Notes under the pieces: model-generated | Told to the model about the DNA's origin: nothing | Databases searched by the model: none | What the model saw: only the letters and a program-made list of their open reading frames with translations | In this document: positions 1,602 to 60,475 of the stretch, in pieces | How the letters are laid out: every line of letters starts with the position of its first letter | Position numbering within the stretch: the first letter of the stretch is position 1 | Program-made: the position numbers and the translations under genes | NCBI GenBank assembly: GCA_043781255.1 | Contig: JAYWBQ010000028.1 | Coordinates: forward strand, 16,702 to 80,701 | DNA from: Minisyncoccota bacterium | Lineage (GTDB): Bacteria > Patescibacteriota > Minisyncoccia > Phycocordibacterales > UBA5272 | Direction: 5' to 3' | DNA length: 64,000 bases

Positions 1602-2345
1602 TTAAAATTTTACTTCTAATAACTCATCATCTGAAAAACTAAATACTTCACCCGTTTTTAACATTTGTGTGGAATGATAATCTTCTTTAATTCCCCCCTC
1701 TGCAATATGCTTAACTATCCGCCCTATCCACCCATGTGTTGATATAAAAACACTATCATTCTTAGTCCATTTTCTAAGTCTTCTTAAGTATGTTAAAAAT
1801 CTTTTAGCTCTAAAGTAAGTATCCTCAGCATTTTCAGTTTTTGATTTTCCTTCATACCACTGCTCAACGTAAAAATCCAAAACTCCCATAAATCCAACTT
1901 TTTCTATTAGGATTTTGTATTCCTCAGAGCTCAGTAAGGTAGTATCAAATTCTACTTCCTTCAAGTACTCACTTTGGATAATTTCAAGATGATTACCAGT
2001 TTTTTCTTCTATGACATTTAGAACTTCTTGAGCTGTCTCAACACAGCGTAAATATGGAGAAGAAATAATAAGTTTTACTTTTTCTAAAACTTCAGTAGAA
2101 AGTTTCTCAACACTTCCCCTAACTTCAACCTTACCGTTTTCAGAAAGTGGTAAGTTTAAAGATTTTGGAACATCAATTGCATTTAGAAAGTCATCAAAAG
2201 GCATTCTATTTGTACCGTAAGTTTCCGGGTCTACTCCAGGACTAGTAACCGGCTTTCCATGTCTAACAAAATGAACATTTTTTATTGATTCTGCAGGAAA
2301 ATTTTCTTGAGTGACATTTAAACTATCTGGATTAGTAGGTTCCAT
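1602..2345 (-). CDS. Histidine phosphatase family protein (phosphoglycerate mutase-like)
   Basis: FVRHGK (RHG catalytic motif) near the N-terminus and a second conserved His in ISTHGW. Confidence 0.6.
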   Translation of the reverse strand: MEPTNPDSLNVTQENFPAESIKNVHFVRHGKPVTSPGVDPETYGTNRMPFDDFLNAIDVPKSLNLPLSENGKVEVRGSVEKLSTEVLEKVKLIISSPYLRCVETAQEVLNVIEEKTGNHLEIIQSEYLKEVEFDTTLLSSEEYKILIEKVGFMGVLDFYVEQWYEGKSKTENAEDTYFRAKRFLTYLRRLRKWTKNDSVFISTHGWIGRIVKHIAEGGIKEDYHSTQMLKTGEVFSFSDDELLEVKF

Positions 2346-2603: not shown

Positions 2604-3101
2604 ATGTCTACATCTATCTTAGATGAATTCTTCCTGTGTGATGTTTCTGTAGATCAAAAATCAATAAAGTATTCAATAGACAGAAATAGTACTTATCTAC
2701 TGTCTAGAGAGTTGTTCCTACACTCAAAATCACATGTTGAGTGGTTTTCCGCATTCCCTGATGTATCACTGCACGCTGATTACTCACAGAAGGTTAGAGG
2801 GTCACTTTTCACAGGTATTGTTAAAACACTTTTTCCGGAGGAAAAATTAAGTATTGTATCTGCACATTACCTTTTCCCTTGTCAAACTCTAGCGGAGGAA
2901 CGGAGTGAGTTTTACAAGTGGAAAAGTAGTGTGATAGGTGAAGACATACCAGCCCGTCCTGTTAAAGGGCGGGTATGGTTACACATAGCACGCGGGAAGT
3001 GCGTAAGCGGTACCCAACGGGTACCGAGCAACGCGTATCAACGTTCTGGGTTACTAGTAACACCCAGAGAACGTTGCATGTTGCAACAACACTCCATATG
3101 A
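2604..3101 (+). CDS. Hypothetical protein on the element. The C-terminal part overlaps the inverted-repeat block and may not be coding.
   Basis: 165-aa ORF. Its last ~50 codons run through GC-rich palindromes (2940-3095), so the true product is probably shorter, or the ORF is spurious. Confidence 0.25.
   Translation: MSTSILDEFFLCDVSVDQKSIKYSIDRNSTYLLSRELFLHSKSHVEWFSAFPDVSLHADYSQKVRGSLFTGIVKTLFPEEKLSIVSAHYLFPCQTLAEERSEFYKWKSSVIGEDIPARPVKGRVWLHIARGKCVSGTQRVPSNAYQRSGLLVTPRERCMLQQHSI
2950..3096. repeat. Cluster of inverted repeats; candidate replication origin or recombination site of the element
   Basis: Three inverted repeats: GGTACCCAACGGGTACC (3009-3025), CAACGTTCTGGGTT-ACTAGT-AACACCCAGAGAACGTTG (3039-3076) and TGTTGCAACA (~3078-3087). 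They are GC-rich in an AT-rich element and sit immediately upstream of the putative Rep start at 3098. Confidence 0.45.
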
Positions 3102-4171
3102 TAGACACAATTAAATTCTTTGTGTCTATTCCTGATGTTCAAGTTCTTAATAGAATAAAGAGCATTTCTGAACAAATAAAAAGAGAAGACCTAAAAACAG
3201 GAAAGATAAGATTTGTATTCCACACAACTGAAATAAAAGTAGGTTCTTATAATAAATCAATCAATATAAGGATAACAGACAATCTTTACAACCAAGGATT
3301 ATTCATAGAGCTCTCAATTCCAAAATATGCAAAAGGAAACAATATAGAAATGCTCCTACCCAGAGAGCTCCCACAAATAATAGAAAAATTATCCCAAGAC
3401 ATAACCACCCAACTAGATACCCCACTACCTCATTTTTCTACTTGGGAAATATTTAGATTAGACATTTGTTATAACTGGATATTTAAAACTAAACAAGAAA
3501 CAGAAACAGTAAGGGGTTTTCTTCAAAGAATAGATTATCCAAGAAAGAAGAAAATCCTGTACCCAACATCCGTCATGTTTTTAGGTACTGCTTATCTTAT
3601 TAGATTCTACTTAAAATATCCTGAGTACTTAGTTCATGACTACAAAGATTTACAAGATGAAGACAAAACAAGTGATAGAACATTTAATCTTTTATTCTTT
3701 GCAGAAAGAATTGTTAGATTTGAAGTTGAGTTTAAGAAAAAACATCTTAAAGGGGTTTTTAGATATGACAAAGTATTCATTGTACATATACAAGATGATG
3801 AAAAAATAGAGGAGGAACTCAAGCACTACCTCAATGACAAAGTATTCAAATATGTAACTCTTAAGAATACAACAGATATCAAAGTAGAAGAACTGCTTTA
3901 CAGTAACTTCACAAAAACAAAAGCTACACGTCTTTATCAATTCTACAATGATTTCTATTTAAGTAATGGAGCTATAAAAAATAGAATGCTTAGCGGTGGT
4001 TTAAACAGAAGCACTATTTGGAGGTATAAAACAGATCTTAAAAGTGTTGGTATTGGTTTTGACGTGGTAAGTACTTCTGGCGTCAGTTTACTTGAACAGT
4101 TAGTAATTCCATCTCCAAATTCAAAGTTTGATTTAATTGGTTTTCCTGAAAAAGAAAATGGACATTGTTAA
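3098..4171 (+). CDS. Possible rolling-circle replication initiator (Rep_trans-like); otherwise a hypothetical protein
   Basis: The ORF track starts it at 2975, but codons 1-41 lie in the IR block. The Met at 3098 (MIDTIKFF...) is the more plausible start. The segment KKHLKGVFRYDKVF resembles the Rep_trans R-x-Y-D-K nucleophile region. Weak, unverified. Confidence 0.35.
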   Translation: MIDTIKFFVSIPDVQVLNRIKSISEQIKREDLKTGKIRFVFHTTEIKVGSYNKSINIRITDNLYNQGLFIELSIPKYAKGNNIEMLLPRELPQIIEKLSQDITTQLDTPLPHFSTWEIFRLDICYNWIFKTKQETETVRGFLQRIDYPRKKKILYPTSVMFLGTAYLIRFYLKYPEYLVHDYKDLQDEDKTSDRTFNLLFFAERIVRFEVEFKKKHLKGVFRYDKVFIVHIQDDEKIEEELKHYLNDKVFKYVTLKNTTDIKVEELLYSNFTKTKATRLYQFYNDFYLSNGAIKNRMLSGGLNRSTIWRYKTDLKSVGIGFDVVSTSGVSLLEQLVIPSPNSKFDLIGFPEKENGHC

Positions 4172-4328
4172 AACTTCACAAGAAGAAGTTTTACCTGAAG
4201 AAACCCTACAAACGTTAGAGGCTTTAGGTGAGGTGCTGCTTAGAATTAGGAGAAGGATGTTATCTGAGGGGTTTGACGTGGTAGATGGAAAAGTTGTTAA
4301 AAAGAGTATAATAGACAAAAATGACTGA
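4137..4328 (+). CDS. Small protein translationally coupled to the recombinase; candidate recombination directionality factor or regulator
   Basis: Of the 63 codons, a start at MDIVKT (4158) is likely. Its stop TGA (4326-4328) overlaps the recombinase ATG (4321) in an ATGACTGA arrangement. Confidence 0.3.
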   Translation: MVFLKKKMDIVKTSQEEVLPEETLQTLEALGEVLLRIRRRMLSEGFDVVDGKVVKKSIIDKND

Positions 4329-5991
4329 AGAAGAACTACAAATCTGGAAGGATATTGAGAAAGGTAAGTACTGCAATTACTATTTGATTTACAATAGAAA
4401 AAGTACTGATGAACAAGATAATCAGAAAACTTCTCTTAGACATCAAAAAGAAGAAAATCTTAAATTTGCTCAAAAGAATAATTTACCTATTGCCCCCATT
4501 ACAACACCTACATTTTTTAATAATGGTGTAATATCAGAAAAACATTCTGCATATAAACAAGATGATGATATGGTTTTAAATGATGACGGAACTGTTCAAC
4601 TTAGCGTTGGAAGACCAAAGTTTTTTAAACTGTCACAGTTGTTAAATAAGAAATTATTTAAAGGTGTTATTTTCTTATGTCTTGACAGAGCTAGTAGAAA
4701 TGCGTCTGATAATTTAATCATCAAAAAACTTCAAAAGAATGGTGTAGATATACTCTTTGCTCTTGCTACTTATGATAAGACTAGTGCGGGGAAATTACAC
4801 CAAGATATTGATGGGATGTTTGCGGAACATAAATCAAGAGACACTGCTGAAAAAGTCACAAATACTGGAAAGAAGAATAGAAATGGTGGTGTCTGCACTT
4901 ATAAAGCACCTGTTGGTTATTTAAATCTAGGAACAATGGATAACAAACCATTTGACCCAGTACGTGCTCCATTTATTGTAAAATTTTTTGAACTAGCAGA
5001 TACTGGATGGTCACTTGCGGATATAGCTAGATTTTCTATTGAACAAGGTTTTACAATGCCTCCAATTCGGAAAAGAAGGAGTACTCATCAACTACTTTTA
5101 GATGAAGAAGAAGATGAAGCATCAACTCAACCCAAAGTATGCAACCTTGCTAGATATACCACTATACAAAAGATACTACGCAGTCCTTTTTATACAGGTG
5201 CTGTCCAAAACAAAGAACTTGGGTGGATACCTAGTACAAGTCATAAAGCTCTCATAACAAAAGAAATGTTTGATAGAGTACAAGAAAAACTTACTAAGAA
5301 GAACAGGAGTAAAAAGTATAATGAACCTCTTCCTAATCCATTTAGAGCACAATTCACCTGTGACGGTTGTAGACGCTCCTATACCCCATATTTTAAGAAA
5401 GGACACCTATATTTAGGGTCTAGGTGTGTAGTTGGGTGTTCTAACTCAAACAAGAACTTTAACGTTGATTTTATTACCAAGAACATAAGTAAGGTTGTCA
5501 GTAGTCTTTCTTTCTCTAAGGAGGAAATTGGAGTTATAGATAGTAGGGTTAAAAACTATTTAGAAGTCTTAGAAAAAGACCAAAATAGTAAGGATGAGGA
5601 AAATAAAAATAAGAAGAATAAACTTAGTGAAGATTTAGCATACTTAATAGCAAATAAACTCACCCTTTTAAAGAATGGTGTTTATACTCCTGAAAGTTTG
5701 GTGGTAGAAGAAAAAAAACTGGAAACAGCTATCAGTAACATTTCTAACCTTGAGCATGTTTCAGTAGAAGAAATACAAAAAACAGTACAAAATGTTTATA
5801 AACTTTCAGAACTTCTAAAAGACTTTATTCCTCAATGGGAATTTGCTAATTCTCATGAAAAACAAGATTTACTTAAAATAATGTTTTCAGAACTTTCTAT
5901 TTCTGAGAAAAACCTTAATTATAAGGTTACAAATGGACTTGTTCCCATTCAATCAAGATTTTTCTCTCTTTGTGCCCAGGAAAGGACTTGA
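4321..5991 (+). CDS. Large serine recombinase (resolvase domain, recombinase domain, zinc ribbon, coiled coil)
   Basis: N-terminal YLIYNRKSTDEQ (the Y-x-R-x-S-T-x-x-Q catalytic serine motif). The central region has the large-serine-recombinase layout. Cys cluster CDGCRRS...GSRCVVGC. C-terminal coiled-coil-like segment. The last 19 nt overlap tRNA-Leu. Confidence 0.9.
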   Translation: MTEEELQIWKDIEKGKYCNYYLIYNRKSTDEQDNQKTSLRHQKEENLKFAQKNNLPIAPITTPTFFNNGVISEKHSAYKQDDDMVLNDDGTVQLSVGRPKFFKLSQLLNKKLFKGVIFLCLDRASRNASDNLIIKKLQKNGVDILFALATYDKTSAGKLHQDIDGMFAEHKSRDTAEKVTNTGKKNRNGGVCTYKAPVGYLNLGTMDNKPFDPVRAPFIVKFFELADTGWSLADIARFSIEQGFTMPPIRKRRSTHQLLLDEEEDEASTQPKVCNLARYTTIQKILRSPFYTGAVQNKELGWIPSTSHKALITKEMFDRVQEKLTKKNRSKKYNEPLPNPFRAQFTCDGCRRSYTPYFKKGHLYLGSRCVVGCSNSNKNFNVDFITKNISKVVSSLSFSKEEIGVIDSRVKNYLEVLEKDQNSKDEENKNKKNKLSEDLAYLIANKLTLLKNGVYTPESLVVEEKKLETAISNISNLEHVSVEEIQKTVQNVYKLSELLKDFIPQWEFANSHEKQDLLKIMFSELSISEKNLNYKVTNGLVPIQSRFFSLCAQERT

Positions 5992-6054
5992 ACCTTCACG
6001 CCTTGCGGCATCAGTTCCTAAGACTGATGTGTCTACCAATTTCACCACCTGGGC
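5973..6054 (-). tRNA. tRNA-Leu (anticodon TAG)
   Basis: Hand-folded. Acceptor stem GCCCAGG/CCTGGGC. D-arm GTGAAATTGGTAGACAC. Anticodon loop CTTAGGA. Long variable arm TGCCGCAAGGCGTG. T-arm AAGGTTCAAGTCCTT. Confidence 0.85.
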
Positions 6055-16883: not shown

Positions 16884-16966
16884 GCGTCGGTGGTGGAGTG
16901 GTCAATCACAACAGACTGTAAATCTGTCGCCTCCGGGCTTCGCTGGTTCAAATCCAGCCCGACGCA
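16884..16966 (+). tRNA. tRNA-Tyr (anticodon GTA)
   Basis: Hand-folded. Acceptor stem GCGTCGG/CCGACGC. Anticodon stem-loop ACAGA-CTGTAAA-TCTGT. Long variable arm. T-arm GCTGG-TTCAAAT-CCAGC. A TAGAAT -10-like element lies ~85 nt upstream. Confidence 0.85.
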
Positions 16967-16972
16967 CTGAAT

Positions 16973-17000
16973 TCAAAAAGCACCTTCAGGTGCTTTTTGT
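16973..17000 (+). terminator. Hairpin terminator after tRNA-Tyr
   Basis: AAAAAGCACC-ttca-GGTGCTTTTT perfect stem with a T-run. Confidence 0.55.
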
Positions 17001-17326
17001 GCGCAGGGCAGGATTTGAACTGCTGATTAGTAAATCACACGGGGGGGGTGATAGTCGCAACCTGCATACTCCAGGAGTTATTCTGCTGAATGACGAGCAG
17101 GTGTAGGTCTCGAGTATAGTAATGTGATACCATCCCTAACAAACCATTCAACATATTTGCCTTAATTTACCTCATAAAAAATAGTGTTTTTGTGCAGACA
17201 GTGTGTAAAGGTTAATTAGAAATGGTATGAGAGGCGAGTTTAGTCCGACACATAAAATTAAAAACACCTACTTGAAAGTATTTTTAATTAAAATTATTTT
17301 TTGGAGATAGATGATACGATGGAGTT

Positions 17327-21782: not shown

Positions 21783-22268
21783 TTATAAAGGTCTATTGTG
21801 GTCAATTTTTTCATCAACGACTTCTATCTCATCTTGCATTTCGTCAATGTTTTCTTGAATATCCTCTACATCTTCTGCAATATCTTCCATATCCTCTTGA
21901 ATTTCCTCCACGTCGTGTGAGATCTCTTCCACGTCTTCTGCTATACCTTCCACATCTTCTTGCATCTCCTCAACATTTTCTTGAATATCCCCTACATCTT
22001 CCGCGATTTCATCAATTTCTTTTTCAACGCTTGCAAGAGCTCGTCCTTGGTAATTCACACTTATCTGAATGAATATTGAAAGATAAATAGCCTCGAGAGA
22101 CACAATCGTCGTAAGAACAAGAAGTACTCGTTCAAAATTAACGCCAAGCAAGATAATCACAAATGCTCCTGCAAAAAGGAGTGTATGGATGACAACTGAA
22201 CTGATTGACCCAATACCACGAGTTACCGAAAGTGCAAGAGCTTCAGCCTTATTTAAAGGGGTTTTCAT
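21783..22268 (-). CDS. DUF1003-like membrane protein with a C-terminal acidic heptad-repeat tail
   Basis: N-terminal GSISSVVIHTLLFAGAFVIILLGVNFERVLL...SLEAIYLSIFIQISVNYQ matches the DUF1003 pattern. The C-terminus has nine 7-residue repeats (IAEDVED/IQENVEE/MQEDVEG...). Confidence 0.55.
   Translation of the reverse strand: MKTPLNKAEALALSVTRGIGSISSVVIHTLLFAGAFVIILLGVNFERVLLVLTTIVSLEAIYLSIFIQISVNYQGRALASVEKEIDEIAEDVGDIQENVEEMQEDVEGIAEDVEEISHDVEEIQEDMEDIAEDVEDIQENIDEMQDEIEVVDEKIDHNRPL
21825..22015. repeat. Tandem 21-bp repeats (about 9 copies) encoding the acidic heptad repeats
   Basis: Periodic gatatcttc/gacgtcttc/catatcctc... units visible in the plus-strand sequence. Confidence 0.6.
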
Positions 22269-23459: not shown

Positions 23460-23470
23460 CGAAGTTGGTT

Positions 23471-23507
23471 TTATTTACGAATAATACCCCGTGGCATTAG
23501 CCCAAGG
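23471..23507 (+). repeat. Hairpin-repeat family, degenerate type-A copy
   Basis: TTATTTACGAATAA palindrome + TACCCCGTGGCATTAGCCCAAGG. Confidence 0.4.
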
Positions 23508-23612
23508 ATGTTCATTGAAATAAAAAGACCCCCAGAATACGTAGCCGTTCAAGGATTAATCCCAGTACCACTTAATGTATATCCTTCACATGCTTAGAGC
23601 AAGGACAATTAG

Positions 23613-28758: not shown

Positions 28759-29106
28759 AATGTCTCCTTTTGTGAGAATGAGATTAATGAAAAAGAACGT
28801 TTATGTTATCCTAGTATATTAATGTTTAAAATACAAGTGTTTGGAGATGCCTGCGGGAATGTCTTCGGCAAGTAAATTTTTGTCGTCACAAAAATTTCTC
28901 GCTTTGGCCTCCCGGCATCATTTACTAATCGTCTAACGCAAGTCAAGCAGTTGGGATCGCCCCTCCCTGCTTGCTTGAGTACAAGTATCGTTTATCGTTG
29001 GTCGGAACGCACTATTTTTATATTCACTTTGTTCATTAAAAATAGGTGCCTACGGTCCCTGAATGTAAGTCAAACAGTAGGGAAGAAAACTTTTTGAAAC
29101 ATAGCT

Positions 29107-29179
29107 GTGTCCCCAGTAGGGATCGAACCTACGACCTGCGGATTAAGAGTCCGATGCTCTACCAGCTGAGCTATAGGGA
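29107..29179 (-). tRNA. tRNA-Lys (anticodon CTT)
   Basis: Hand-folded. Acceptor stem GTCCCTA/TGGGGAC. D-arm GCTCAGCTGGTAGAGC. Anticodon loop CTCTTAA. T-arm GTAGG-TTCGATC-CCTAC. Confidence 0.85.
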
Positions 29180-29250
29180 CATTGACACACAAAACATATT
29201 ATACCACAATATAAAGAATAATTCTAGCTCAAATATGCTACAATTTATGT

Positions 29251-37414: not shown

Positions 37415-38720
37415 CACTCATAGTATGCTACCTACTCGCTCTTTTATTTCTATATTTCTAGTTAGCTCACTTTTACTCTTCTGTTCACCTTCTTTTCTGA
37501 CTCATACAGTCGCTCAAACAGCAGAGCAGTTAAAAGGTAATCTTGATACCCTGTCATTACAAATTAAAGCACTTGATGATGAAATTAAAGCGTTCAACTC
37601 AAAAATTAGCAAAACCCAAGGAGAGGCAAAAACCTTAAAAGAAGCTCTTACTAAACTAGAACTTCGACGCACAGGACTTTCAAAAGATATTTCCTATACA
37701 AAACTTCGGATTAATCAGGCTGAGCAAAATATTAGTTTTACGCAAGGAAAAATTAAAAATACAGAATCAACGCTTGATAAAACTAAAAGTGAGCTTGGAC
37801 TCTCTTTGCGGTTACTTGTCCATAATGAACAGTCTCTCCCATATTTTGTAAGTGCTCTTGCAAAGGGTGCTCACATCTCTGATGCGCTTGACATCACAAA
37901 ACGTGGAGAGGAGTTTACCACTGCTGTTAATCAAAAAACCCGTGCACTTGTTGATACTAAAACAACACTCTCAATTCAAAAAGCTTCATACGAACAACAC
38001 AAAAATGTTCTTCTCACACTTAATCAAACATTAACTGACCAAAAGATTCTAGTTGATCAAACATCAAAGGATAAGAGTTCTCTTCTTTCTGAAACAAAAG
38101 ATAAAGAGTCGACATATCAAAAGCTACTTGCTGAGAGGAAAAAAAAGAAAGGTGAGTTGGAAGTGGAAATGCTTGATGTTGAAGCAAAACTCCAAACAAT
38201 CGTGGACTCAAGTAAAATTCCTAAATATGGAAAGGGGATTCTTCAATATCCACTTGATAATGTTATCATCACTCAGTACTTTGGTAACACACCATTTTCA
38301 AGTAAAAACCCTCAAGTCTATAATGGTTCTGGGCATAATGGGGTCGATTTTGGTACAAAGATAGGTACGCCAATTTTATCTGCGGCAGCTGGCAGAGTGC
38401 TCGGTACCGGAGATACTGATGCATCATGTAATGGTGTGTCTTATGGTAAATGGGTTCTCATTAGACACGGCAATGGACTCACATCGCTCTATGCACATCT
38501 TTCTGTTATCCAAGCAAAAGTCGGAGATGTCGTTACCTCACGACAAAAAATTGGGCTCTCAGGAAATACCGGGTATAGTACTGGTCCACACTTACACTTT
38601 ACCGTGTATGCTTCTGATGCAGTTCAAATAACAAAGTATGTTAGTAAAGTATGTGGGACAAATATGACTATGCCAATTGCTCCACGTGCAGGGTATCTCA
38701 ATCCACTATCTTATTTGTAA
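37389..38720 (+). CDS. M23-family peptidoglycan endopeptidase with an N-terminal coiled coil (EnvC-like)
   Basis: Signal or TM segment, then a long coiled coil. C-terminal GHNGVDFGTKIGTPILSAAAGRV...GPHLHF carries the M23 HxxxD and HxH motifs. Confidence 0.8.
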   Translation: MFVAPLIHNTHSMLPTRSFISIFLVSSLLLFCSPSFLTHTVAQTAEQLKGNLDTLSLQIKALDDEIKAFNSKISKTQGEAKTLKEALTKLELRRTGLSKDISYTKLRINQAEQNISFTQGKIKNTESTLDKTKSELGLSLRLLVHNEQSLPYFVSALAKGAHISDALDITKRGEEFTTAVNQKTRALVDTKTTLSIQKASYEQHKNVLLTLNQTLTDQKILVDQTSKDKSSLLSETKDKESTYQKLLAERKKKKGELEVEMLDVEAKLQTIVDSSKIPKYGKGILQYPLDNVIITQYFGNTPFSSKNPQVYNGSGHNGVDFGTKIGTPILSAAAGRVLGTGDTDASCNGVSYGKWVLIRHGNGLTSLYAHLSVIQAKVGDVVTSRQKIGLSGNTGYSTGPHLHFTVYASDAVQITKYVSKVCGTNMTMPIAPRAGYLNPLSYL

Positions 38721-38753
38721 TCTTTCTTATTACTACATATACTGTTTACATAT

Positions 38754-38861
38754 ATGCTTACCTTCACTATCCCCGCACTCATACTCCTAATGATCTTGGC
38801 GTTTCTTGTCGGAGCTCTCATTGGTGGGGTTATTATTTATAGAAAGTCTACGGGAAAATAA
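38754..38861 (+). CDS. Small single-TM peptide (35 aa), copy 1 of a tandem pair; not in the ORF track
   Basis: MLTFTIPALILLMILAFLVGALIGGVIIYRKSTGK. Hydrophobic core with a basic C-terminus. The first 11 codons match copy 2 with mostly synonymous differences. Confidence 0.45.
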   Translation: MLTFTIPALILLMILAFLVGALIGGVIIYRKSTGK

Positions 38862-38873
38862 TTCATCTAAATT

Positions 38874-38975
38874 ATGCTAACATTCACTATTCCAGCCTTT
38901 ATTCTCTTGTTATTTATGTGTGCTTTAGTTGGTGCAACATTTGGAATTTGGGTTGTTCTTATAAAGTGGAGGTAG
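38874..38975 (+). CDS. Small single-TM peptide (33 aa), copy 2 of the tandem pair; not in the ORF track
   Basis: MLTFTIPAFILLLFMCALVGATFGIWVVLIKWR. It starts 13 nt after the stop of copy 1. Confidence 0.45.
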   Translation: MLTFTIPAFILLLFMCALVGATFGIWVVLIKWR

Positions 38976-39079
38976 ATAATTTTTGGTAAAGGTGAAAGGG
39001 TGAGGGGAGAAGTCCCCTATTTAAACTAGGGTTAGTTTTTAAATGTTAATTTAAGAGTTACGAGGGTTAGTATTTCTTT

Positions 39080-39116
39080 TTATTCGCGAATAATACCCTG
39101 TGGCGTCAGCCCAGGG
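39080..39116 (+). repeat. Hairpin-repeat family, type-A copy
   Basis: TTATTCGCGAATAA perfect palindrome + TACC + CCCTG-TGGCGTCAGCC-CAGGG hairpin. Confidence 0.6.
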
Positions 39117-39334
39117 ATGTAGCGAGTTCTGCATCCAGTTCTCCTTCGTTATGATACGATACAGGTATGTCTGCAAAACAGAATTACAAAAGGGGTAATC
39201 ACTGTGTATACCTGTGCGATTATCACATAGTGCTTCCGACCAAATTCAGACACTCATGTATCACAGAAGACCTGTGGTCGTACTTGTATGGGAAACTTCT
39301 GGAGATTACAAAACATTATCCGAATTCGTGAATA

Positions 39335-39362
39335 CTACCTCCATAGCGTCAGTCCAAGGTAG
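39335..39362 (+). repeat. Hairpin-repeat family, degenerate copy
   Basis: CTACCT-CCATAGCGTCAGTCCA-AGGTAG. The loop is related to TGGCGTCAGCC and the outer stem is compensated. Confidence 0.4.
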
Positions 39363-40057
39363 TTCATTGGTCAGTATGGTAAATACGGTACATTGTGGAA
39401 CAAGTTTGCTGTAAAGTTACTATTATTATAAAAATTTAAAAATGCAAAGGTTTTTAAAGTCTTGTAATGGCTAAAATAGCTTACCAGATAACTACGGTGA
39501 AGATGTGGGTTATTTAGGATACTTATGTCGTAAAAGATATATTGTGCGACATTAACTTATAATAACAAAAGCCCCCTCAACCTTATATATACAAAGGATT
39601 TTTCCCTTTGTCTTTTACTATTGATTATTACTAAATTTTTTAACAGCACTTACTGCCCTATCCATCCGTAGGTAACCATCAAGTCATCCTATTTCCTTTG
39701 TTACTATTTAAAAGCAAGTTAAGTCTTGGTTAATGTCATACATAGAAATATACTCTTACCAGATTAAGTCATTTTTACTGTAGTTCGATCTTAGATAGAC
39801 TACTGCTCGCACATAGCATGTCTCGCTTACTCTTTATAGATCTAAGTAAACACTGGATAACTATAAATCCCAAGTTACGATAGGCTCTAAGGTTAATTTT
39901 AGAGGATACTACCTACATCACTAGAATTATATATAAGACTACGATTACTTGGAATATATACCAAATCAGTAAAAAGTCTCTGATGTTACTGTAAAGATTA
40001 ACCATTAGTAAGATAAATTATTCCTACTATTTTTTATTCAATTGTTTTTATCTTTTT

Positions 40058-40093
40058 TAGTCCACACAAATCCTCCGTGGCGTCAGCCCGGAG
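40058..40093 (+). repeat. Hairpin-repeat family, type-B copy
   Basis: TAGTCCACACAAATC + CTCCG-TGGCGTCAGCC-CGGAG. Confidence 0.6.
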
Positions 40094-40235
40094 TTCTTTA
40101 GTTTATAATTATTATTTTATTATTTCTGTGGCTAAGACTACTTTTTCCTTGCTATTTTTTTTGAAAAAATATTTTAAGCTATAGTGAATGCTTTATATGT
40201 CTGCGTTTCCTCACCTTCCATTATAAAAGTAAAAT

Positions 40236-40263
40236 GGGTATGTATCCTTACAATACATACCCA
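40236..40263 (-). terminator. Hairpin terminator downstream of proS
   Basis: GGGTATGTAT-n8-ATACATACCC inverted repeat, followed on the minus strand by a T-rich run. Confidence 0.5.
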
Positions 40264-40331
40264 TTTAAACTATTAGATATAGCAAAATGTTTAGATAGAT
40301 AACTATAGAAAAGTGATACTGTCTTCTATGG

Positions 40332-41585
40332 CTAGCAAGCTTTTGTAAACATGTGAATGCACTGATCTACGGAAACAACATCAGAAGTTGTTCCTGTACG
40401 TTCCTTCACTTCAACTCCTCCTAAGGTGAGAGACTTGTCACTCACAACAACCCGCATAGGAATACCAATGAGATCACTATCAGCAAACTTTTCCCCTGCC
40501 TGTAACTCACGATCATCAAAGAGTACTTCTACATGGTTGTCAGTTAGTTGCTTGTATAAATACTCTGCTTGCTTGTAAGCTTCTCCATTTTTATCTTTTC
40601 CAAGCACGATAAGATGTATTGAGTATGGTGCAATAGATGCTGGCCATACGAGACCATTTTCATCAGATAATGTTTCAGCAATTACTCCCATAATACGACT
40701 GACCCCAATGCCATAACATCCCATAACGCCCCGCTTCCCTTCACCTTCCTTATCAATAAAAGAAAAATCAAAAGCTTCTTGGTAACGAGTGCCTAAGTCA
40801 AAGACATTCCCAACCTCGGAGGCCTTTCCTAATTTAAGTGGACCAGATCCATCTGGAGACTCATCTCCTTCTTCTAATTCTGTGATTTCTTTGTTGATGC
40901 AATAATTAGATTTTTCTGAATACAAAATATCATCTTCACCAGCATTGGTAAGCACCATGAATTCATATGATATTTTTTTTGAAAAACTGCCACCACTTGC
41001 CTCCGTTACTTTTGTCACAAGTCCAATCTCAGAATAAATCTCAAGGTACTTCTTCTTTGCTTGCTCATAAAATGTATCAAATGCATCTTGGTTTTCATGA
41101 ATTGTATACATGTCTTTCATAAGAAATTCTCGACCACGCATAATGCCTGCTTTTGCTCGAAGTTCATCTCTAAATTTCCAGTGAATTTGATATCCAATGA
41201 ATGGAAGATTTTTATATGATCGGATATATTCTTTAATAATTGGCGTCACAACCTCTTCTTCACTTTGTCCGATTGCATATTCTCGTTCAGTCCTGCTTTG
41301 AATTTTGAAGAGAACTTCAACAGAATCCCATGCACCAGTTGTTTTCCATAGTTCTGCCGGATGAAGCATCGACATAGTCATTTCTTGAGCGCCAAGCTCA
41401 TTCATTTTAAGCCTAACTATATCCTCAATTTTTCTAAGCACACGAAGACCTAGTGGAAGAAATGTGTAGGACCCCGCCATTGTTTTATGAACAAAACCAG
41501 CACGAATAAGTAGCTGTGCATTTTTACTTGTTTCATCTGCAGGTAGATCTTTAGTCGTCTTCGTAAATAATTGTGATTGTCGCAT
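40332..41585 (-). CDS. proS: Prolyl-tRNA synthetase (bacterial-like N-terminus, no INS editing domain)
   Basis: MRQSQLFTKTTKDLPADETSKNAQLLIRAGF matches the ProRS N-terminal consensus. Class II motifs present. 417 aa is too short to hold an INS domain. Confidence 0.85.
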   Translation of the reverse strand: MRQSQLFTKTTKDLPADETSKNAQLLIRAGFVHKTMAGSYTFLPLGLRVLRKIEDIVRLKMNELGAQEMTMSMLHPAELWKTTGAWDSVEVLFKIQSRTEREYAIGQSEEEVVTPIIKEYIRSYKNLPFIGYQIHWKFRDELRAKAGIMRGREFLMKDMYTIHENQDAFDTFYEQAKKKYLEIYSEIGLVTKVTEASGGSFSKKISYEFMVLTNAGEDDILYSEKSNYCINKEITELEEGDESPDGSGPLKLGKASEVGNVFDLGTRYQEAFDFSFIDKEGEGKRGVMGCYGIGVSRIMGVIAETLSDENGLVWPASIAPYSIHLIVLGKDKNGEAYKQAEYLYKQLTDNHVEVLFDDRELQAGEKFADSDLIGIPMRVVVSDKSLTLGGVEVKERTGTTSDVVSVDQCIHMFTKAC

Positions 41586-42731: not shown

Positions 42732-42823
42732 AGAACAGACTGAAGCAGGTACACTCTAGACTTTAGCTTTTTAATTCAAATGTATACAAAAAATGGTATC
42801 TTTGGAAATCAGTTTTTGTACTT

Positions 42824-42860
42824 TAGTCCACACAAATCCTCCGTGGCGTTAGTCCGGGAG
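42824..42860 (+). repeat. Hairpin-repeat family, type-B copy
   Basis: TAGTCCACACAAATC + CTCCG-TGGCGTTAGTC-CGGGAG. Confidence 0.55.
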
Positions 42861-52589: not shown

Positions 52590-52840
52590 TTTGAATGAAG
52601 AAAATACCTCAATATAAAAAGAAAGCTACCGAAATCGGGTAGTTTTCGACGCCCGTATAATTAAAACGGGATTTTTGACAACCACTACTGTGGTCGTCAA
52701 CCAAAAATCCATTTGCTCCAAGCTTTGAGAAAACCTTCAGTGGTAATGAACAGACCTATCAAAACCTTCTTTGTCTACGACATAAAACGTACCCACCATT
52801 TCCCAAATGAAAATCCCCTTTTAAGGGATGTTTTCATTTA

Positions 52841-52858
52841 GCTCCGTGGGTAGGGATC
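52841..52858. repeat. Copy 1 of the tRNA-Asn 3'-end sequence (GCTCCGTGGGTAGGGATC)
   Basis: 18/18 identity to the tRNA-Asn 3' end at 53906-53923. Confidence 0.6.
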
Positions 52859-53140
52859 TTTCCCGAGAGTATTCGGGACTGTGGATTCCTGCAGATTGAG
52901 TACAATCTAAGAAATCTCGTAGCCTTCGGTTCGATCTCGGTACAAACGGCTGTTAAAAGTAAAAATCCCACACAAAGTGGAACTTTTACTTTTAATGCTC
53001 GCTTGGCAATCTGACTTCTGAACTTTTAATTGGTCCAAAGCTGTCGGTGATCCAGAGATAACAGCCAGAGAAGTTAACTACTTGTTATCACTTTGTTTAA
53101 TTAGTTTTAGAAAATAATCGTTAGTATCGTAAGTAGTATA

Positions 53141-53180
53141 AAAATGAAAACCACCGAAGCGCACGGTGGCTTTCGGTGGG
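53141..53180 (-). terminator. Rho-independent terminator of the GC-rich orphan gene
   Basis: Minus-strand RNA CCACCG-UGCGCUU-CGGUGG followed by UUUUCAUUUUU, immediately 3' of the stop at 53198. Confidence 0.6.
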
Positions 53181-53197
53181 GCTGTGAAGTGGTTCGT

Positions 53198-53581
53198 CTA
53201 CGCGTCAGCATAGCGCTTGAAGAACTCTGCACGTGTCGTGACAGGCTTCACGACTTCAGCAGATTCCAGACTGAACAGGAAAAGAGCAAAGTCATGATTC
53301 GGGAAGCCGAGCTCGTTCCAGTAGGTGGCGGCTTCCGGTGACTTTTCACGAAGTGCTTCGATCGCCATGGTCTGAAGCACGATGTAGCCGGGATAGTCCG
53401 GAACGTCGAACCCAGAAATGACATCACGCATCCCATCACCTTTTTGAGGAGTGCCGTCGTGCGAAAAGAGACAAGGAACTTCGACCTCAATCCACTGCTC
53501 ACGGATTGAGAGTGGTGCACCACCCTTTGGAACAGCGGTGAAGCGAATGACACCGAGATCTTCCAGTTTAATCTGTAACAT
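53198..53581 (-). CDS. Hypothetical protein; high-GC orphan gene inside the tRNA-Asn repeat region
   Basis: 127-aa ORF, noticeably more GC-rich than the rest of the window. It has its own terminator and lies between repeat copies 1 and 2. No motif recognised. Confidence 0.5.
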   Translation of the reverse strand: MLQIKLEDLGVIRFTAVPKGGAPLSIREQWIEVEVPCLFSHDGTPQKGDGMRDVISGFDVPDYPGYIVLQTMAIEALREKSPEAATYWNELGFPNHDFALFLFSLESAEVVKPVTTRAEFFKRYADA

Positions 53582-53708
53582 GAGAACTCCTTGGTTTGGT
53601 TATAGAAACACCTAAATACTACACTTTTGAAAATCATAAAGCAAGAACTAGTTCTGAACCCTAACTAGGTAAATGAAAAATACCTTATCTAAAAGGTATT
53701 TTTTAAAG

Positions 53709-53725
53709 GCTCCGTGGGTAGGGAT
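53709..53725. repeat. Copy 2 of the tRNA-Asn 3'-end sequence
   Basis: GCTCCGTGGGTAGGGAT, 17/17 identity to the tRNA 3' end. Confidence 0.6.
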
Positions 53726-53906
53726 ATCTCCCACAAGTAAACTTTTGCCGTCACAAAAGTTTCTCGCGGGCCACTCCTCGTCGTTTCGCTTGCTAGCGAA
53801 ACATACTCCGGACTTTCGACCCCTAACAAAAGCCAAGCAGTTGGCTTTTTCCCGCGGAGCACTAAAATCAAAGGCCGCCATTTCTGGCGACCTAAGATTT
53901 TATGGG

Positions 53907-53978
53907 CTCCGTGGGTAGGGATCGAACCTACGACCAATTCGTTAACAGCGAACTGCTCTACCGCTGAGCTACCACGGA
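53907..53978 (-). tRNA. tRNA-Asn (anticodon GTT)
   Basis: Hand-folded. Acceptor stem TCCGTGG/CCACGGA. Anticodon stem-loop GTTCG-CTGTTAA-CGAAT. T-arm GTAGG-TTCGATC-CCTAC. Confidence 0.85.
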
Positions 53979-54173
53979 ATATAAGTAGAACTGAAACTTT
54001 ATTATTTAAGAATTACTTCTTGAACATAGATACAATCATACAAGAAAAACAGGCTTTCTGCAAGATGAAATTTTGTGAATAATGAGTATAGATAATAATA
54101 TTTATTACAATAGATTCTTGATTCTAGGAAGTATCTTTTAGATGCCTCTATTAGAAAATAGTGACTCTTTGTA

Positions 54174-60307: not shown

Positions 60308-60332
60308 TCTACGAGCTGAGTAAATGAACCTC

Positions 60333-60368
60333 CCCGGGCTGACGCCACGGGGTATTATTCGCGAATAA
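60333..60368 (-). repeat. Hairpin-repeat family, type-A copy in inverse orientation
   Basis: The reverse complement reads TTATTCGCGAATAA + TACC + CCCG-TGGCGTCAGCC-CGGGG. Confidence 0.6.
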
Positions 60369-60475
60369 AAAATAGTTTTTTGTAAGAAATTAGAGACCAG
60401 AACGTCACAATAGATGAGCCTCGTGATATTGCAAGTAATTATACAAATGTTTCTTAATTAATACTCATAAATACT

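What the first reader, a model, noticed from the sequence alone, without database searches (positions are those of the whole stretch)
28869..29106. Homologous small hairpin-rich elements sit between the upstream gene and the tRNA at two different tRNAs (Lys and Asn)
A conserved 41-nt block is shared by the region upstream of tRNA-Lys and the element abutting tRNA-Asn. The pair comprises 28869-28954 on the Lys side (coordinates in this entry) and 53732-53844 on the Asn side.

- **Shared block.** CAAGTAAAtTTTTGtCGTCACAAAAaTTTCTCGCtttGGCC (28869-28909) against CAAGTAAAcTTTTGcCGTCACAAAAgTTTCTCGCgggcC (53732-53772), about 85% identity.
- **Shared motif.** Both also contain CAAGCAGTTGG, at 28944 and 53834.
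- **Local hairpins.** Both embed the shared sequences in hairpins such as GTTTCGC-TTGCTA-GCGAAAC and CAAGCAG-n16-CTGCTTG.
- **Partial tRNA-end copy.** The Lys-side copy lies next to a partial copy of the tRNA-Lys 3' end (CAGTAGGGAAG at ~29078).

This looks like a family of about 200-bp tRNA-targeting mini-elements (MITE or satellite-like) or a conserved ncRNA that is co-located with tRNAs.
Basis: seen in the sequence. Interest (0 to 1): 0.55.

Follow-up and report, generated by a model that had tools for sequence, protein, structure and literature searches.

The report
tRNA-end-targeting hairpin mini-elements in CPR bacteria
The shared 41-nt block is one hairpin of a roughly 190-nt structured mini-element found behind many different tRNA genes in ultra-small (CPR) bacteria; each copy carries an antisense copy of its own tRNA's 3' end, which suggests a retargetable, hairpin-based way of inserting DNA at tRNA genes.

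Summary
**Observation.** It is real. The block occurs exactly twice in the window (28869-28902 and 53734-53767), with 0 expected by chance.

**What it is.** The block is hairpin P5 of a ~190-nt element family. I found 32 copies in candidate-phyla-radiation (CPR, Patescibacteria) contigs and none in viral or phage collections. No Rfam family matches.

**Anatomy, on the tRNA strand:**
- the tRNA;
- a terminator-like hairpin;
- two "R arms" antisense to tRNA positions 54-76, split by a conserved hairpin (hp4);
- a covarying core (P4 and P5);
- a direct copy ("D arm") of the tRNA 3' end.

**Arms and core.** The arms match whichever tRNA is adjacent: Asn, Ile, Arg, His, Ser, Cys, Lys, Leu, Pro, Glu, Gln or Tyr. 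The core is much more conserved than the arms.

**The two window copies.**
- The Asn copy is intact (149.5 bits) and sits in a two-unit array bounded by three copies of the tRNA-Asn 3' end.
- The "Lys" copy is a degenerate relic (49.7 bits). Its 3' arm is tRNA-Cys-like, not tRNA-Lys.

**Best reading.** These are non-autonomous, single-strand-hairpin-dependent integrative cassettes aimed at tRNA 3' ends, resembling integron attC sites or IS200/IS605 ends. The recombinase is unknown, and the mechanism is inferred, not shown.

**Prior description.** I found none.

The parts
53903..53979 (-). tRNA-Asn(GTT), the target gene of the intact unit
   Evidence: ARAGORN; Rfam tRNA at 69.7 bits
53863..53902 (-). 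T1: terminator-like hairpin (GGTCGCCA-GAAA-TGGCGGCC followed by a T-run). It forms the apical part of the long hairpin
53851..53860 (-). R arm a (GCTCCGCGGG): antisense to the tRNA-Asn acceptor 3' strand, with one mismatch to the resident tRNA. It is a perfect complement of the L038 D-arm sequence CCCGCGGAGC
53828..53850 (-). hp4: a conserved branch hairpin whose four central loop bases are CTGC.
53815..53825 (-). R arm b (TAGGGGTCGAA): antisense to tRNA positions 54-64, that is the T-loop plus 4 nt of the T-stem 3' strand
53767..53814 (-). Core with hairpin P4 (53783-53802, loop CTAGCAAG) and its flanking conserved strands
53734..53766 (-). It is a 13-14-bp hairpin with loop GACG, a bulged A and a conserved G.U pair at its base
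53708..53733 (-). Junction (TGGGAGAT) plus D arm D2, an 18-nt direct copy of the tRNA-Asn 3' end (53708-53725)
52859..53704 (-). Segment B, the older distal unit. It holds the T2 hairpin (53676-53704), a decayed arm-b-like TTAGGGTTCAGAA (53652-53664), a 127-aa ORF (53198-53581), and the module GATTTCTTAGATTGTACTCAATCT (52893-52916), a close variant of which (GATTTCTTGGATTGTAATCAATCT) occurs in L021
52805..52858 (-). D3, the third copy of the tRNA-Asn 3' end (52841-52858), followed by terminator-like hairpin T3 (52805-52839)
28842..28987 (-). Degenerate relic unit downstream of tRNA-Lys. It holds P5 (28869-28901), a tRNA-Cys-like 3' arm (28842-28858), a disrupted hp4 (28939-28977), a remnant of arm b (28929-28936), and an inserted GATTAGTAAAT module (28908-28930)
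29107..29180 (-). tRNA-Lys(CTT). It is a neighbour of the relic but not the cognate of the relic's 3' arm. A 9-nt copy of its 3' end lies at 29075-29083
16999..17020 (+). A related element type after tRNA-Tyr and its terminator: an unsplit antisense copy of the tRNA-Tyr 3' end (GTGCGCAGGGCAGGATTTGAAC), with a different core

Best explanation
The block is hairpin P5 of a family of small (~190 nt) protein-less integrative cassettes in CPR (Patescibacteria) bacteria that insert at the 3' end of tRNA genes.

**What each unit brings:**
- its own terminator-like hairpin;
- a two-part antisense copy of the target tRNA's last ~22 nt (the R arms), placed either side of a conserved hairpin (hp4);
- a conserved structured core (P4 and P5).

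A direct copy of the tRNA 3' end (the D arm) lies on the unit's far side.

**The hairpin (shown).** On the tRNA-sense strand, the tRNA 3' end, the terminator and the R arms form one long Y-shaped hairpin.

**The mechanism (inferred).**
- The element is handled as folded single-stranded DNA. The R arms either rebuild a duplex copy of the tRNA gene's 3' end or pair with it.
- This resembles integron attC sites, the CTX phage attP hairpin, or the guide-plus-hairpin ends of IS200/IS605 elements.
- A recombinase or transposase encoded elsewhere would carry out the strand exchange in the T-loop.
- Repeated insertion next to the tRNA would build the tandem arrays.

**Status of each step.**
- Shown: the architecture, the covariation, the match of arms to tRNAs, the arrays, and the differing occupancy between related genomes.
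- Inferred: the single-stranded DNA intermediate, the position of the crossover, and the enzyme.
For: **Restricted to CPR.** Every true hit of the block is in a CPR MAG or in a metagenome contig that has the complementary stem. There were none in IMG/VR or in phage records.

**Conserved core, changing arms.** A covariance model finds 32 copies. Copies sit 3' of tRNA-Asn, Ile, Arg, His, Ser, Cys, Lys, Leu, Pro, Glu, Gln and Tyr. The core is much more conserved than the arms.

**Arm geometry.**
- In 10 of the 12 units tabulated, arm b is an exact antisense copy of tRNA positions 54-64: 11 nt in nine units and 13 nt in L013.
- The other units carry 1-2 differences there.
- Arm a is antisense to positions 65-73 plus the trailer. 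It runs without a break into the right arm of the terminator.

**The long hairpin.** In all 13 cases tested, the stretch from T54 of the tRNA to the end of arm b folds into the same Y-shaped hairpin. Free energies are -50 to -80 kcal/mol and z-scores -9 to -19. With DNA parameters the Asn unit gives -61.6 kcal/mol and z -9.5.

**Covariation.** 94.9% of cells are paired against 76% in shuffles. 30 of 37 pairs show changes on both sides, and 0 of 500 shuffles reach the observed values. Slid controls give 38-52%.

**Which strand folds.** A conserved G.U pair at the base of P5 (24 G.U, 4 G-C) points to the tRNA-sense strand.

**D arms follow the resident tRNA.** D arms are 10-19 nt long. They begin at tRNA position 56-61 and end 1-3 nt after the discriminator base. 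Where the R arms deviate from the resident tRNA (window Asn, L036 Pro, L041 Glu), the D arm still equals the resident tRNA. This suggests the R arms travel with the element and the D arm derives from the target.

**Arrays and turnover.**
- Three tRNA-Asn end copies bound two units in the window.
- Arrays are also seen in L006, L010, L016 and L039.
- Orthologous tRNA-Leu and tRNA-Lys loci carry different units in related genomes.

**No independent expression, no local enzyme.**
- The unit has no promoter of its own and sits directly behind an intrinsic-terminator-like hairpin.
- None of the roughly 60 window ORFs scanned lies inside the Asn-A unit or the Lys relic. Only the 127-aa ORF lies inside segment B.
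- None of these ORFs is a tyrosine recombinase. The only recombinase is a large serine recombinase elsewhere in the window.
Against: - No recombinase or transposase has been linked to the elements.
- No filled-versus-empty pair of otherwise identical sites was recovered, so no junction has been observed being made.
- No circular or single-stranded intermediate can be seen with these tools.
- How the ~22-nt R arms get rewritten for a new tRNA is unexplained.
- Strong covariation fits an RNA as well as single-stranded DNA.
- G.U-over-A.C asymmetry rests largely on the conserved pair at the base of P5 and on the less reliably aligned closing helix. In the other helices it is 16 G.U against 10 A.C.
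- The window's cumulative GC skew puts the folding strand of the Asn and Lys units on the leading-strand template. An IS608-like preference for the lagging-strand template would predict the opposite, though this rests on only two units.
- The covariation counts come from an alignment fitted to the model.
Confidence: 0.55

Rival explanations
1. It is a structured non-coding RNA gene family. The unit would be made by read-through from the tRNA promoter. Its ends (R arms paired with the D arm) would form a mimic of the tRNA acceptor and T stems, so that tRNA-processing enzymes trim it. The conserved core would carry out an unknown RNA function. Association with tRNAs would then reflect shared transcription and processing rather than insertion.
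For: - The covariation is very strong.
- The Asn unit alone folds with z -9.1, and its 5' GCUCCGCGGG pairs with its 3' CCCACGGAGC.
- There is a conserved G.U pair.
- By analogy, from my own knowledge: the E. coli tyrT 178-bp repeats give rise to rtT RNA.
Against: - The unit lies behind a canonical terminator hairpin and has no promoter.
- The R arms match the upstream tRNA, its trailer and the terminator over 30-45 bp. That is far better than their match to the unit's own D arm; in L004, arm a pairs with only 5 nt of the D arm. A read-through transcript would therefore trap the tRNA 3' half in a hairpin of -50 to -80 kcal/mol.
- Arm b is antisense to the T-loop, whereas most D arms lack the T-loop.
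- The D arm does not co-vary with deviant R arms.
- No Rfam family matches.
Confidence: 0.2
2. It is an RNA-guided element. A transcript of the unit would act like a bridge or guide RNA, with arms a and b pairing with the tRNA gene and steering a trans-encoded recombinase to it.
For: - The two-part guide-like arms flank a hairpin that has a conserved loop.
- The arms are reprogrammed for at least 12 tRNA species on a conserved scaffold.
- A one-mismatch 'foreign' arm is tolerated in the window.
Against: - No recombinase gene is adjacent, no promoter is present, and no donor-side guide is recognisable.
- IS110-type elements encode their recombinase next to the RNA, which is not the case here.
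- Nothing distinguishes an RNA guide from a DNA guide.
Confidence: 0.1
3. They are decayed attachment-site remnants: what is left after deletion of ordinary integrase-carrying islands or prophages that had integrated into tRNA genes (CIME-like).
For: - Direct repeats of the tRNA 3' end are the classic scar of such islands.
- Segment B carries an ORF.
- A serine-recombinase plus rolling-circle replication-protein (Rep) element abuts tRNA-Leu in the same window.
Against: - The size is uniform at ~190 nt, and the same multi-helix core with compensatory changes recurs at 12 different tRNA species and in many genomes. Random deletion remnants would not share this.
- No integrase fragments lie inside the units (ORF lists).
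- The R arms have no role in a double-stranded attP remnant.
Confidence: 0.07
4. They are not mobile. Terminator palindromes would have been extended by replication template switching (quasipalindrome correction), producing antisense copies of the tRNA end locally.
For: Near-perfect, locus-specific palindromes run from the terminator into the tRNA 3' end. Types with an unsplit R arm exist.
Against: This does not explain:
- the R arm ending at tRNA position 54, as it does in the 13 units folded;
- hp4 inserted at positions 64/65;
- the shared core across tRNAs and across taxa;
- the D arms;
- the arrays.
Confidence: 0.03

Closest known systems
Integron gene cassettes with attC sites (folded bottom-strand hairpin recombined with attI by IntI)
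   Same: - An imperfect long hairpin acts on one strand.
- An inverted copy and a direct copy of the recombination core bracket each unit.
- An apical variable stem and an extrahelical feature are present.
- Cassettes stack in arrays next to a fixed entry site, and the cargo is variable.
   Different: - The 'core' is the 3' end of whichever tRNA gene is targeted, not GTTRRRY.
- The entry site is a tRNA gene, not an attI next to intI.
- No tyrosine recombinase was found in the window.
- The cargo is mostly a ~100-nt structured module.
CTX-phi attP(+) forked hairpin and other elements that exploit host Xer recombinases (IMEX)
   Same: Single-stranded DNA would fold to imitate the double-stranded chromosomal target. 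There is no dedicated integrase in the element. Tandem arrays form at the target.
   Different: The target is a tRNA 3' end rather than dif. The elements are ~190 nt and have no genes. The use of host recombinases is unproven.
IS200/IS605 ends and their non-autonomous derivatives (PATEs; REP/RAYT)
   Same: - Subterminal hairpins with conserved loops and a bulged base.
- Bases flanking the foot of P5 co-vary with the junction bases, as guide and cleavage site do in IS200/IS605.
- Strand-specific folding.
- Small multi-copy units without genes.
   Different: - The guide would be ~22 nt rather than 4.
- A 10-19-nt copy of the target is left behind.
- The only Y1 transposase trace in the window (39167-39331) is truncated and is flanked by a different hairpin family.
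tRNA-gene-integrating islands and prophages, and their integrase-less derivatives (CIMEs)
   Same: Insertion at the tRNA 3' end with a direct repeat of the tRNA end. Tandem accretion occurs at the same tRNA.
   Different: - No integrase.
- A uniform small size.
- A conserved folded core.
- An antisense copy of the target.
- The same scaffold is used for at least 12 tRNA species.
E. coli tyrT 178-bp tandem repeats / rtT RNA (from my own knowledge: Egan and Landy 1978; Rfam RF00391)
   Same: Tandem ~180-bp units lie downstream of a tRNA gene, and each carries a copy of the tRNA 3' end.
   Different: There is no sequence or Rfam similarity. The tyrT repeats are a single locus in enterobacteria, and I know of no antisense arms there.

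Membership tests
Integron attC cassette | Conserved core sites R' GTTRRRY and R'' RYYYAAC | tested here: not met
   The paired boxes are tRNA-derived and differ for each tRNA. No GTTRRRY-type constant core is present.
Integron attC cassette | Adjacent intI (tyrosine recombinase) and attI | tested here: not met
   No Phage_integrase-type domain was found in roughly 60 window ORFs.
Integron attC cassette | Single-strand hairpin with two paired boxes, an extrahelical feature and a variable apical stem; arrays of units | tested here: inconclusive
   A Y-shaped hairpin is present in 13 of 13 units, and arrays are present. This is analogous geometry only.
IS200/IS605 derivative (PATE / REP-RAYT) | Y1 HUH transposase acting in trans | tested here: inconclusive
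   The only trace is a truncated 54-aa ORF with a weak Y1_Tnp match (E 7.8e-4, 20 bits, below the cut-off). It is flanked by another hairpin family.
IS200/IS605 derivative (PATE / REP-RAYT) | Subterminal hairpins at both ends, with short guide bases pairing to the cleavage sites; no target duplication | tested here: inconclusive
   - Hairpins hp4 and P5 are supported.
- The flanks of P5 co-vary: TCGG/TCGA, CCGG/TCGG, GGCTG/TAGCC, CCCG/TGGG (read by eye).
- A 10-19-nt tRNA-end repeat is present.
MITE | Terminal inverted repeats at the two ends and a fixed short target-site duplication | tested here: not met
   The left end (trailer and terminator) and the right end (P5 plus TCGAAGA) are not inverted copies of each other. 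The repeat is 10-19 nt of tRNA.
tRNA-integrating island / CIME | Direct repeats of the tRNA 3' end flanking the insert | tested here: met
tRNA-integrating island / CIME | Integrase gene (island), or demonstrable descent from an integrase-bearing parent (CIME) | tested here: not met
   No ORF or integrase fragment lies in the units. No parent element was found.
IS110-type bridge RNA element | DEDD/serine recombinase gene next to the RNA; target and donor loops | tested here: not met
   No adjacent recombinase is present, and no Rfam hit was obtained.
Known RNA families (tRNA-like, tmRNA, rtT, T-box, ribozymes) | Match to an Rfam covariance model or to ARAGORN | tested here: not met
   Only the tRNAs themselves match. 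No other hit is credible, even at E up to 10: the best non-tRNA match overlapping a unit reaches 20.7 bits, below its family's 50-bit gathering score.

The most novel reading that the evidence does not exclude
The two antisense arms would be a programmable ~22-nt guide. By base-pairing with the sense strand of a tRNA gene (positions 54-76), they would place the element's hairpin end against the tRNA 3' end and the T-loop, and so direct a trans-acting enzyme there.

Under this reading the system is a nucleic-acid-guided, retargetable insertion system carried by a ~190-nt protein-less element. It would have colonised most tRNA genes of CPR bacteria, and it would be a new class alongside bridge-RNA and integron systems.
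Probability: 0.22. Interest if true: 0.9.

Novelty: new variant of a known kind. Interest (0 to 1): 0.74.

Why it matters
**Scale in small genomes.** CPR bacteria have very small, streamlined genomes. Even so, in the contigs examined, 14 of 26 tRNA genes have an exact 10-nt or longer copy or antisense copy of their own 3' end within about 1.2 kb downstream. All four tRNAs in this window have something unusual at or just past their 3' end.

**If the elements are mobile cassettes.** They would be a previously undescribed route of gene and RNA-module traffic in a major, poorly understood part of the bacterial tree.

**If the antisense arms select the target.** The system would show a simple way to redirect DNA insertion by changing about 22 nt. 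That would interest both mobile-element biology and genome engineering.

**Annotation.** The result also explains stray tRNA-end fragments and long palindromes that confuse annotation of CPR genomes.

Tried and rejected
**Database searches that found nothing**
- Rfam at gathering thresholds and at E up to 10 on both loci: only tRNAs.
- ARAGORN for tmRNA or tRNA-like genes: none.
- IMG/VR pattern scan and phage blastn: nothing.
- Eight literature searches returned results and found no description of such elements.

**Readings considered and rejected**
- *Leader or riboswitch of the downstream gene.* The downstream genes differ: a 379-aa protein of unknown function versus a terminator followed by another unit. 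The unit always tracks the upstream tRNA.
- *tRNA minihelix with an insertion in the T-loop.* In tRNAs with asymmetric T-loops, arm b is antisense to the loop, not sense (L020 TTCAAGT against ACTTGAA; L004 TTCGATT against AATCGAA).
- *Loop-loop pairing between hp4 (CUGC) and P4 (AGCA).* No covariation supports it (and by eye).

**Leads that did not pan out**
- *The serine recombinase plus Rep element at tRNA-Leu as the helper.* It has a different junction architecture. No copy of the tRNA-Leu end was found at its far side. Only one weak homologue turned up elsewhere.
- *Search for an empty site at tRNA-Asn.* I used exact-protein look-ups and homologues of the flanking hemerythrin. They returned only the same arrangement, truncated contigs, or rearranged relatives.
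- *Cargo test with the 127-aa ORF.* It is a conserved CPR protein found in varied, mostly tRNA-free contexts, so it gives little information.

Full report
**1. Checking the observation**

The window has four tRNAs: Leu 5972-6054(-), Tyr 16884-16967(+), Lys-CTT 29107-29180(-) and Asn-GTT 53903-53979(-). The motif CAAGCAGTTGG and the local hairpins are also there.

Both tRNAs are on the minus strand, so both elements lie downstream of the tRNAs. The three differences inside the block all keep a hairpin paired: one compensatory pair and one U-A to U.G change.

The last 18 nt of tRNA-Asn recur as direct copies at 53708-53725 and 52841-52858 (family D6).

**2. Anatomy of the intact (Asn) unit, read on the minus strand**

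| Part | Coordinates | Description |
|---|---|---|
| tRNA-Asn | 53903-53979 | target gene |
| T1 | 53863-53902 | terminator-like hairpin |
| arm a | 53851-53860 | GCTCCGCGGG, antisense to the acceptor 3' strand |
| hp4 | 53828-53850 | branch hairpin |
| arm b | 53815-53825 | TAGGGGTCGAA, antisense to the T-loop plus 4 nt of the T-stem |
| core with P4 | 53767-53814 | conserved structured core |
| junction | 53726-53733 | links P5 to the D arm |
| D2 | 53708-53725 | direct copy of the tRNA 3' end |
| T2 | 53676-53704 | second hairpin |

- The unit alone folds at -96.8 kcal/mol with z -9.1.
- With DNA parameters, the stretch from T54 of the tRNA to D2 folds at -61.6 kcal/mol with z -9.5. In that fold the R arms pair with the upstream tRNA end, not with D2.
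- Further from the tRNA lies an older unit, segment B (52859-53704). It has a decayed arm, a 127-aa ORF and other modules, and it ends in D3 and T3.

**3. The family**

- A degenerate pattern of the block gave 11 loci in species-representative genomes. All were CPR MAGs: Saccharibacteria, Nomurabacteria and Paceibacterota.
- In metagenomes it gave 31 loci. Those with complementary stem positions are true members. Those without are chance hits inside GC-rich ORFs.
- It gave none in IMG/VR.
- A covariance model built from 17 full-length copies found 32 copies at E below 1e-11 in the sequence held.
- The window's Asn unit scores 149.5 bits and the Lys-side copy 49.7 bits.
- Rfam has no matching family.

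**4. The arms are tailored to the neighbouring tRNA**

I tabulated 12 units that have an adjacent cognate tRNA (Asn, Ile, Arg, Tyr, His, Ser, Cys, Lys, two Leu, Pro, Glu). I read three more copies: one behind tRNA-Arg(tcg), one behind tRNA-Gln, and an orphan copy in L011 with no adjacent tRNA.

- Arm b is an exact antisense copy of tRNA positions 54-64 in 10 of the 12 tabulated units: 11 nt in nine units and 13 nt in L013. The remaining units carry 1-2 differences there.
- Arm a is antisense to positions 65-73 plus the trailer. It continues without a break into the right arm of the terminator hairpin.
- hp4 is inserted at positions 64/65.
- In all 13 cases folded, the stretch from T54 to the end of arm b forms the same Y-shaped hairpin: -50 to -80 kcal/mol and z -9 to -19.
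- The antisense nature is clear in tRNAs with asymmetric T-loops: L020 TTCAAGT against ACTTGAA, and L004 TTCGATT against AATCGAA.
- The D arm is a 10-19-nt direct copy of the tRNA. It begins at position 56-61 and ends 1-3 nt past the discriminator base.

Where the R arms deviate from the resident tRNA, the D arm still equals the resident tRNA. This holds for three units:
- window Asn, which has one mismatch and whose arm a is a perfect complement of the L038 D-arm sequence CCCGCGGAGC;
- L036 Pro;
- L041 Glu.

I take this to mean that the R arms travel with the element and the D arm comes from the target. This is an inference.

**5. Structure is under selection**

On 31 distinct copies:
- 94.9% of cells form standard pairs, against 76% in shuffles;
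- 30 of 37 pairs show changes on both sides;
- 0 of 500 shuffles reach the observed values;
- slid controls give 38-52%.

Loop bases are conserved: CTGC in hp4 (18 of 31), AGCA in P4 (20 of 31) and GACG in P5 (29 of 31).

A conserved G.U pair at the base of P5 (24 G.U, 4 G-C) would be an A.C mismatch on the other strand, so the tRNA-sense strand is the one that folds. In the remaining helices G.U and A.C are nearly balanced (16 against 10).

By eye, the bases just 5' and 3' of P5 also co-vary: TCGG/TCGA, CCGG/TCGG, GGCTG/TAGCC and CCCG/TGGG.

Caveat: the alignment was fitted to the model.

**6. The 'Lys' copy**

- Its 3' arm, TCCCGC-AGGCATC-T-CCA, has a T-stem 3' strand, an acceptor 3' strand, a U discriminator and CCA. 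That matches a tRNA-Cys type and not tRNA-Lys.
- It lacks arm a, has a disrupted hp4, and has an inserted module also seen in L021.
- Contig L016 is syntenic with this part of the window. There, tRNA-Lys(-) and the divergent tRNA-Cys(+) each carry their own intact unit, followed by the DprA region.
- The window copy is therefore a rearranged relic. A plausible origin is recombination between the two inverted units, which is an inference.

**7. Arrays and turnover**

- Among the 26 tRNAs scanned in the first loci and the window, 14 have an exact 10-nt or longer direct or antisense copy of their own 3' end within about 1.2 kb downstream. I estimate about 0.01 such matches per tRNA by chance.
- Other core types share the same grammar. 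Examples are 'GGGGTCGCGAA...GTGACC' and 'GAAAAACCGGT.TACGAAA...'. Some have an unsplit antisense arm, including the one after the window's tRNA-Tyr (16999-17020).
- Orthologous tRNA-Leu(tag) and tRNA-Lys loci in related genomes (window, L006, L016, L020, L039) carry different units and different numbers of units.

**8. Context**

- The window is ordinary CPR chromosome: topA, dprA, infB, clpB, ftsW, murG, gltX, mreB and others.
- No tyrosine recombinase or reverse transcriptase was found.
- The only recombinase is a large serine recombinase (4321-5991). It lies next to a rolling-circle replication protein (Rep, 2975-4171), and its gene overlaps the 3' end of tRNA-Leu. I found no evidence that it services the mini-elements.
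- The unit has no promoter of its own and sits behind a terminator-like hairpin.

**9. Mechanism (inference)**

A sense transcript reading through T1 would lock the tRNA 3' half into a hairpin of -50 to -80 kcal/mol. This, together with the lack of a promoter, makes a DNA-level role for the R arms more likely than an RNA role.

The geometry has four parts:
- a paired box over the T-arm that holds the junction;
- a second paired box over the acceptor strand;
- a branch between the two boxes;
- a variable apical stem.

This parallels integron attC sites and the CTX attP hairpin. The hairpins with co-varying flanks also recall IS200/IS605 ends.

I therefore propose single-strand, hairpin-dependent recombination with exchange in the T-loop, carried out by an enzyme encoded elsewhere. 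Still unexplained are how the arms are rewritten for a new tRNA and which enzyme acts.

**10. Novelty and limits**

I found no description in eight literature searches. No empty-site pair, no intermediate and no transcript data were obtainable with these tools.

I rate it a new variant of known hairpin-based or tRNA-targeting integrative systems. There is a real chance that it is a new, guide-directed class.

Noticed in passing
window 2604-5991: A low-GC (0.29-0.33) segment with three ORFs: a 165-aa ORF, a rolling-circle replication protein (PF05144 Phage_CRI/G2P, 2975-4171), and a 556-aa large serine recombinase (PF00239 plus PF07508; PHROG integrase, 4321-5991). The stop codon of the recombinase gene lies inside the 3' end of tRNA-Leu(tag). 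It looks like an integrated ssDNA-replicon-type element at a tRNA 3' end. No copy of the tRNA-Leu end was found at its far side.
   Followed up: partly
window 23469-23516, 39077-39120, 40053-40097, 42813-42857 (+), 60323-60372 (-), and about 39337-39362: A ~45-nt repeat family, TTTATTCGCGAATAATACCCCGTGGCGTCAGCCCGGGG. It has a small hairpin (CCCCG-U-GGC-GUCA-GCC-CGGGG) that keeps its pairing through compensatory changes. Two copies flank a 54-aa ORF (39167-39331) with a weak N-terminal match to the IS200-like Y1 transposase (E 7.8e-4, 20 bits). This looks like a REP/RAYT or IS200/IS605 relic.
   Followed up: partly
window 38720-40332: A 1.6-kb stretch with no ORF of 70 aa or more and no credible Rfam match. 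It contains the transposase relic and two of the hairpin repeats. The rest is unexplained.
   Followed up: partly
window 16999-17110: After tRNA-Tyr and its terminator there is an unsplit antisense copy of the tRNA-Tyr 3' end, followed by a GC-rich module (GATTAGTAAATCAC...). That module is also present in the Lys-side relic and in L021. No direct copy of the tRNA end was found, so this is probably a truncated unit of another core type.
   Followed up: partly
window 53198-53581 (-): A 127-aa ORF in a region of raised GC (0.46 for 53001-54000) inside segment B. It belongs to a conserved protein family with no Pfam domain. It has 54 homologues, mostly 60-90% identical; the few that are named are CPR (Moranbacteria, Kaiserbacteria). 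The homologues occur in varied contexts.
   Followed up: partly
L010 about 4420-4620 and 5010-5210: Inside the tRNA-Tyr array, a 590-nt tandem duplication contains a near-consensus sigma-70 promoter (TTGACA-17-TATAAT). It is followed by a small hairpin-rich transcript-like region beginning GGTGGCACGTCAGCC, which resembles the window's hairpin repeat.
   Followed up: no
L018 about 2150-2170 (-): In this one copy the P4 hairpin is present as its exact reverse complement (CTTGCTAG instead of CTAGCAAG). This suggests a DNA-level hairpin inversion.
   Followed up: no
window 21783-22268 (-): A 161-aa ORF built of eight 21-nt (7-aa) tandem repeats, coiled-coil-like.
   Followed up: no
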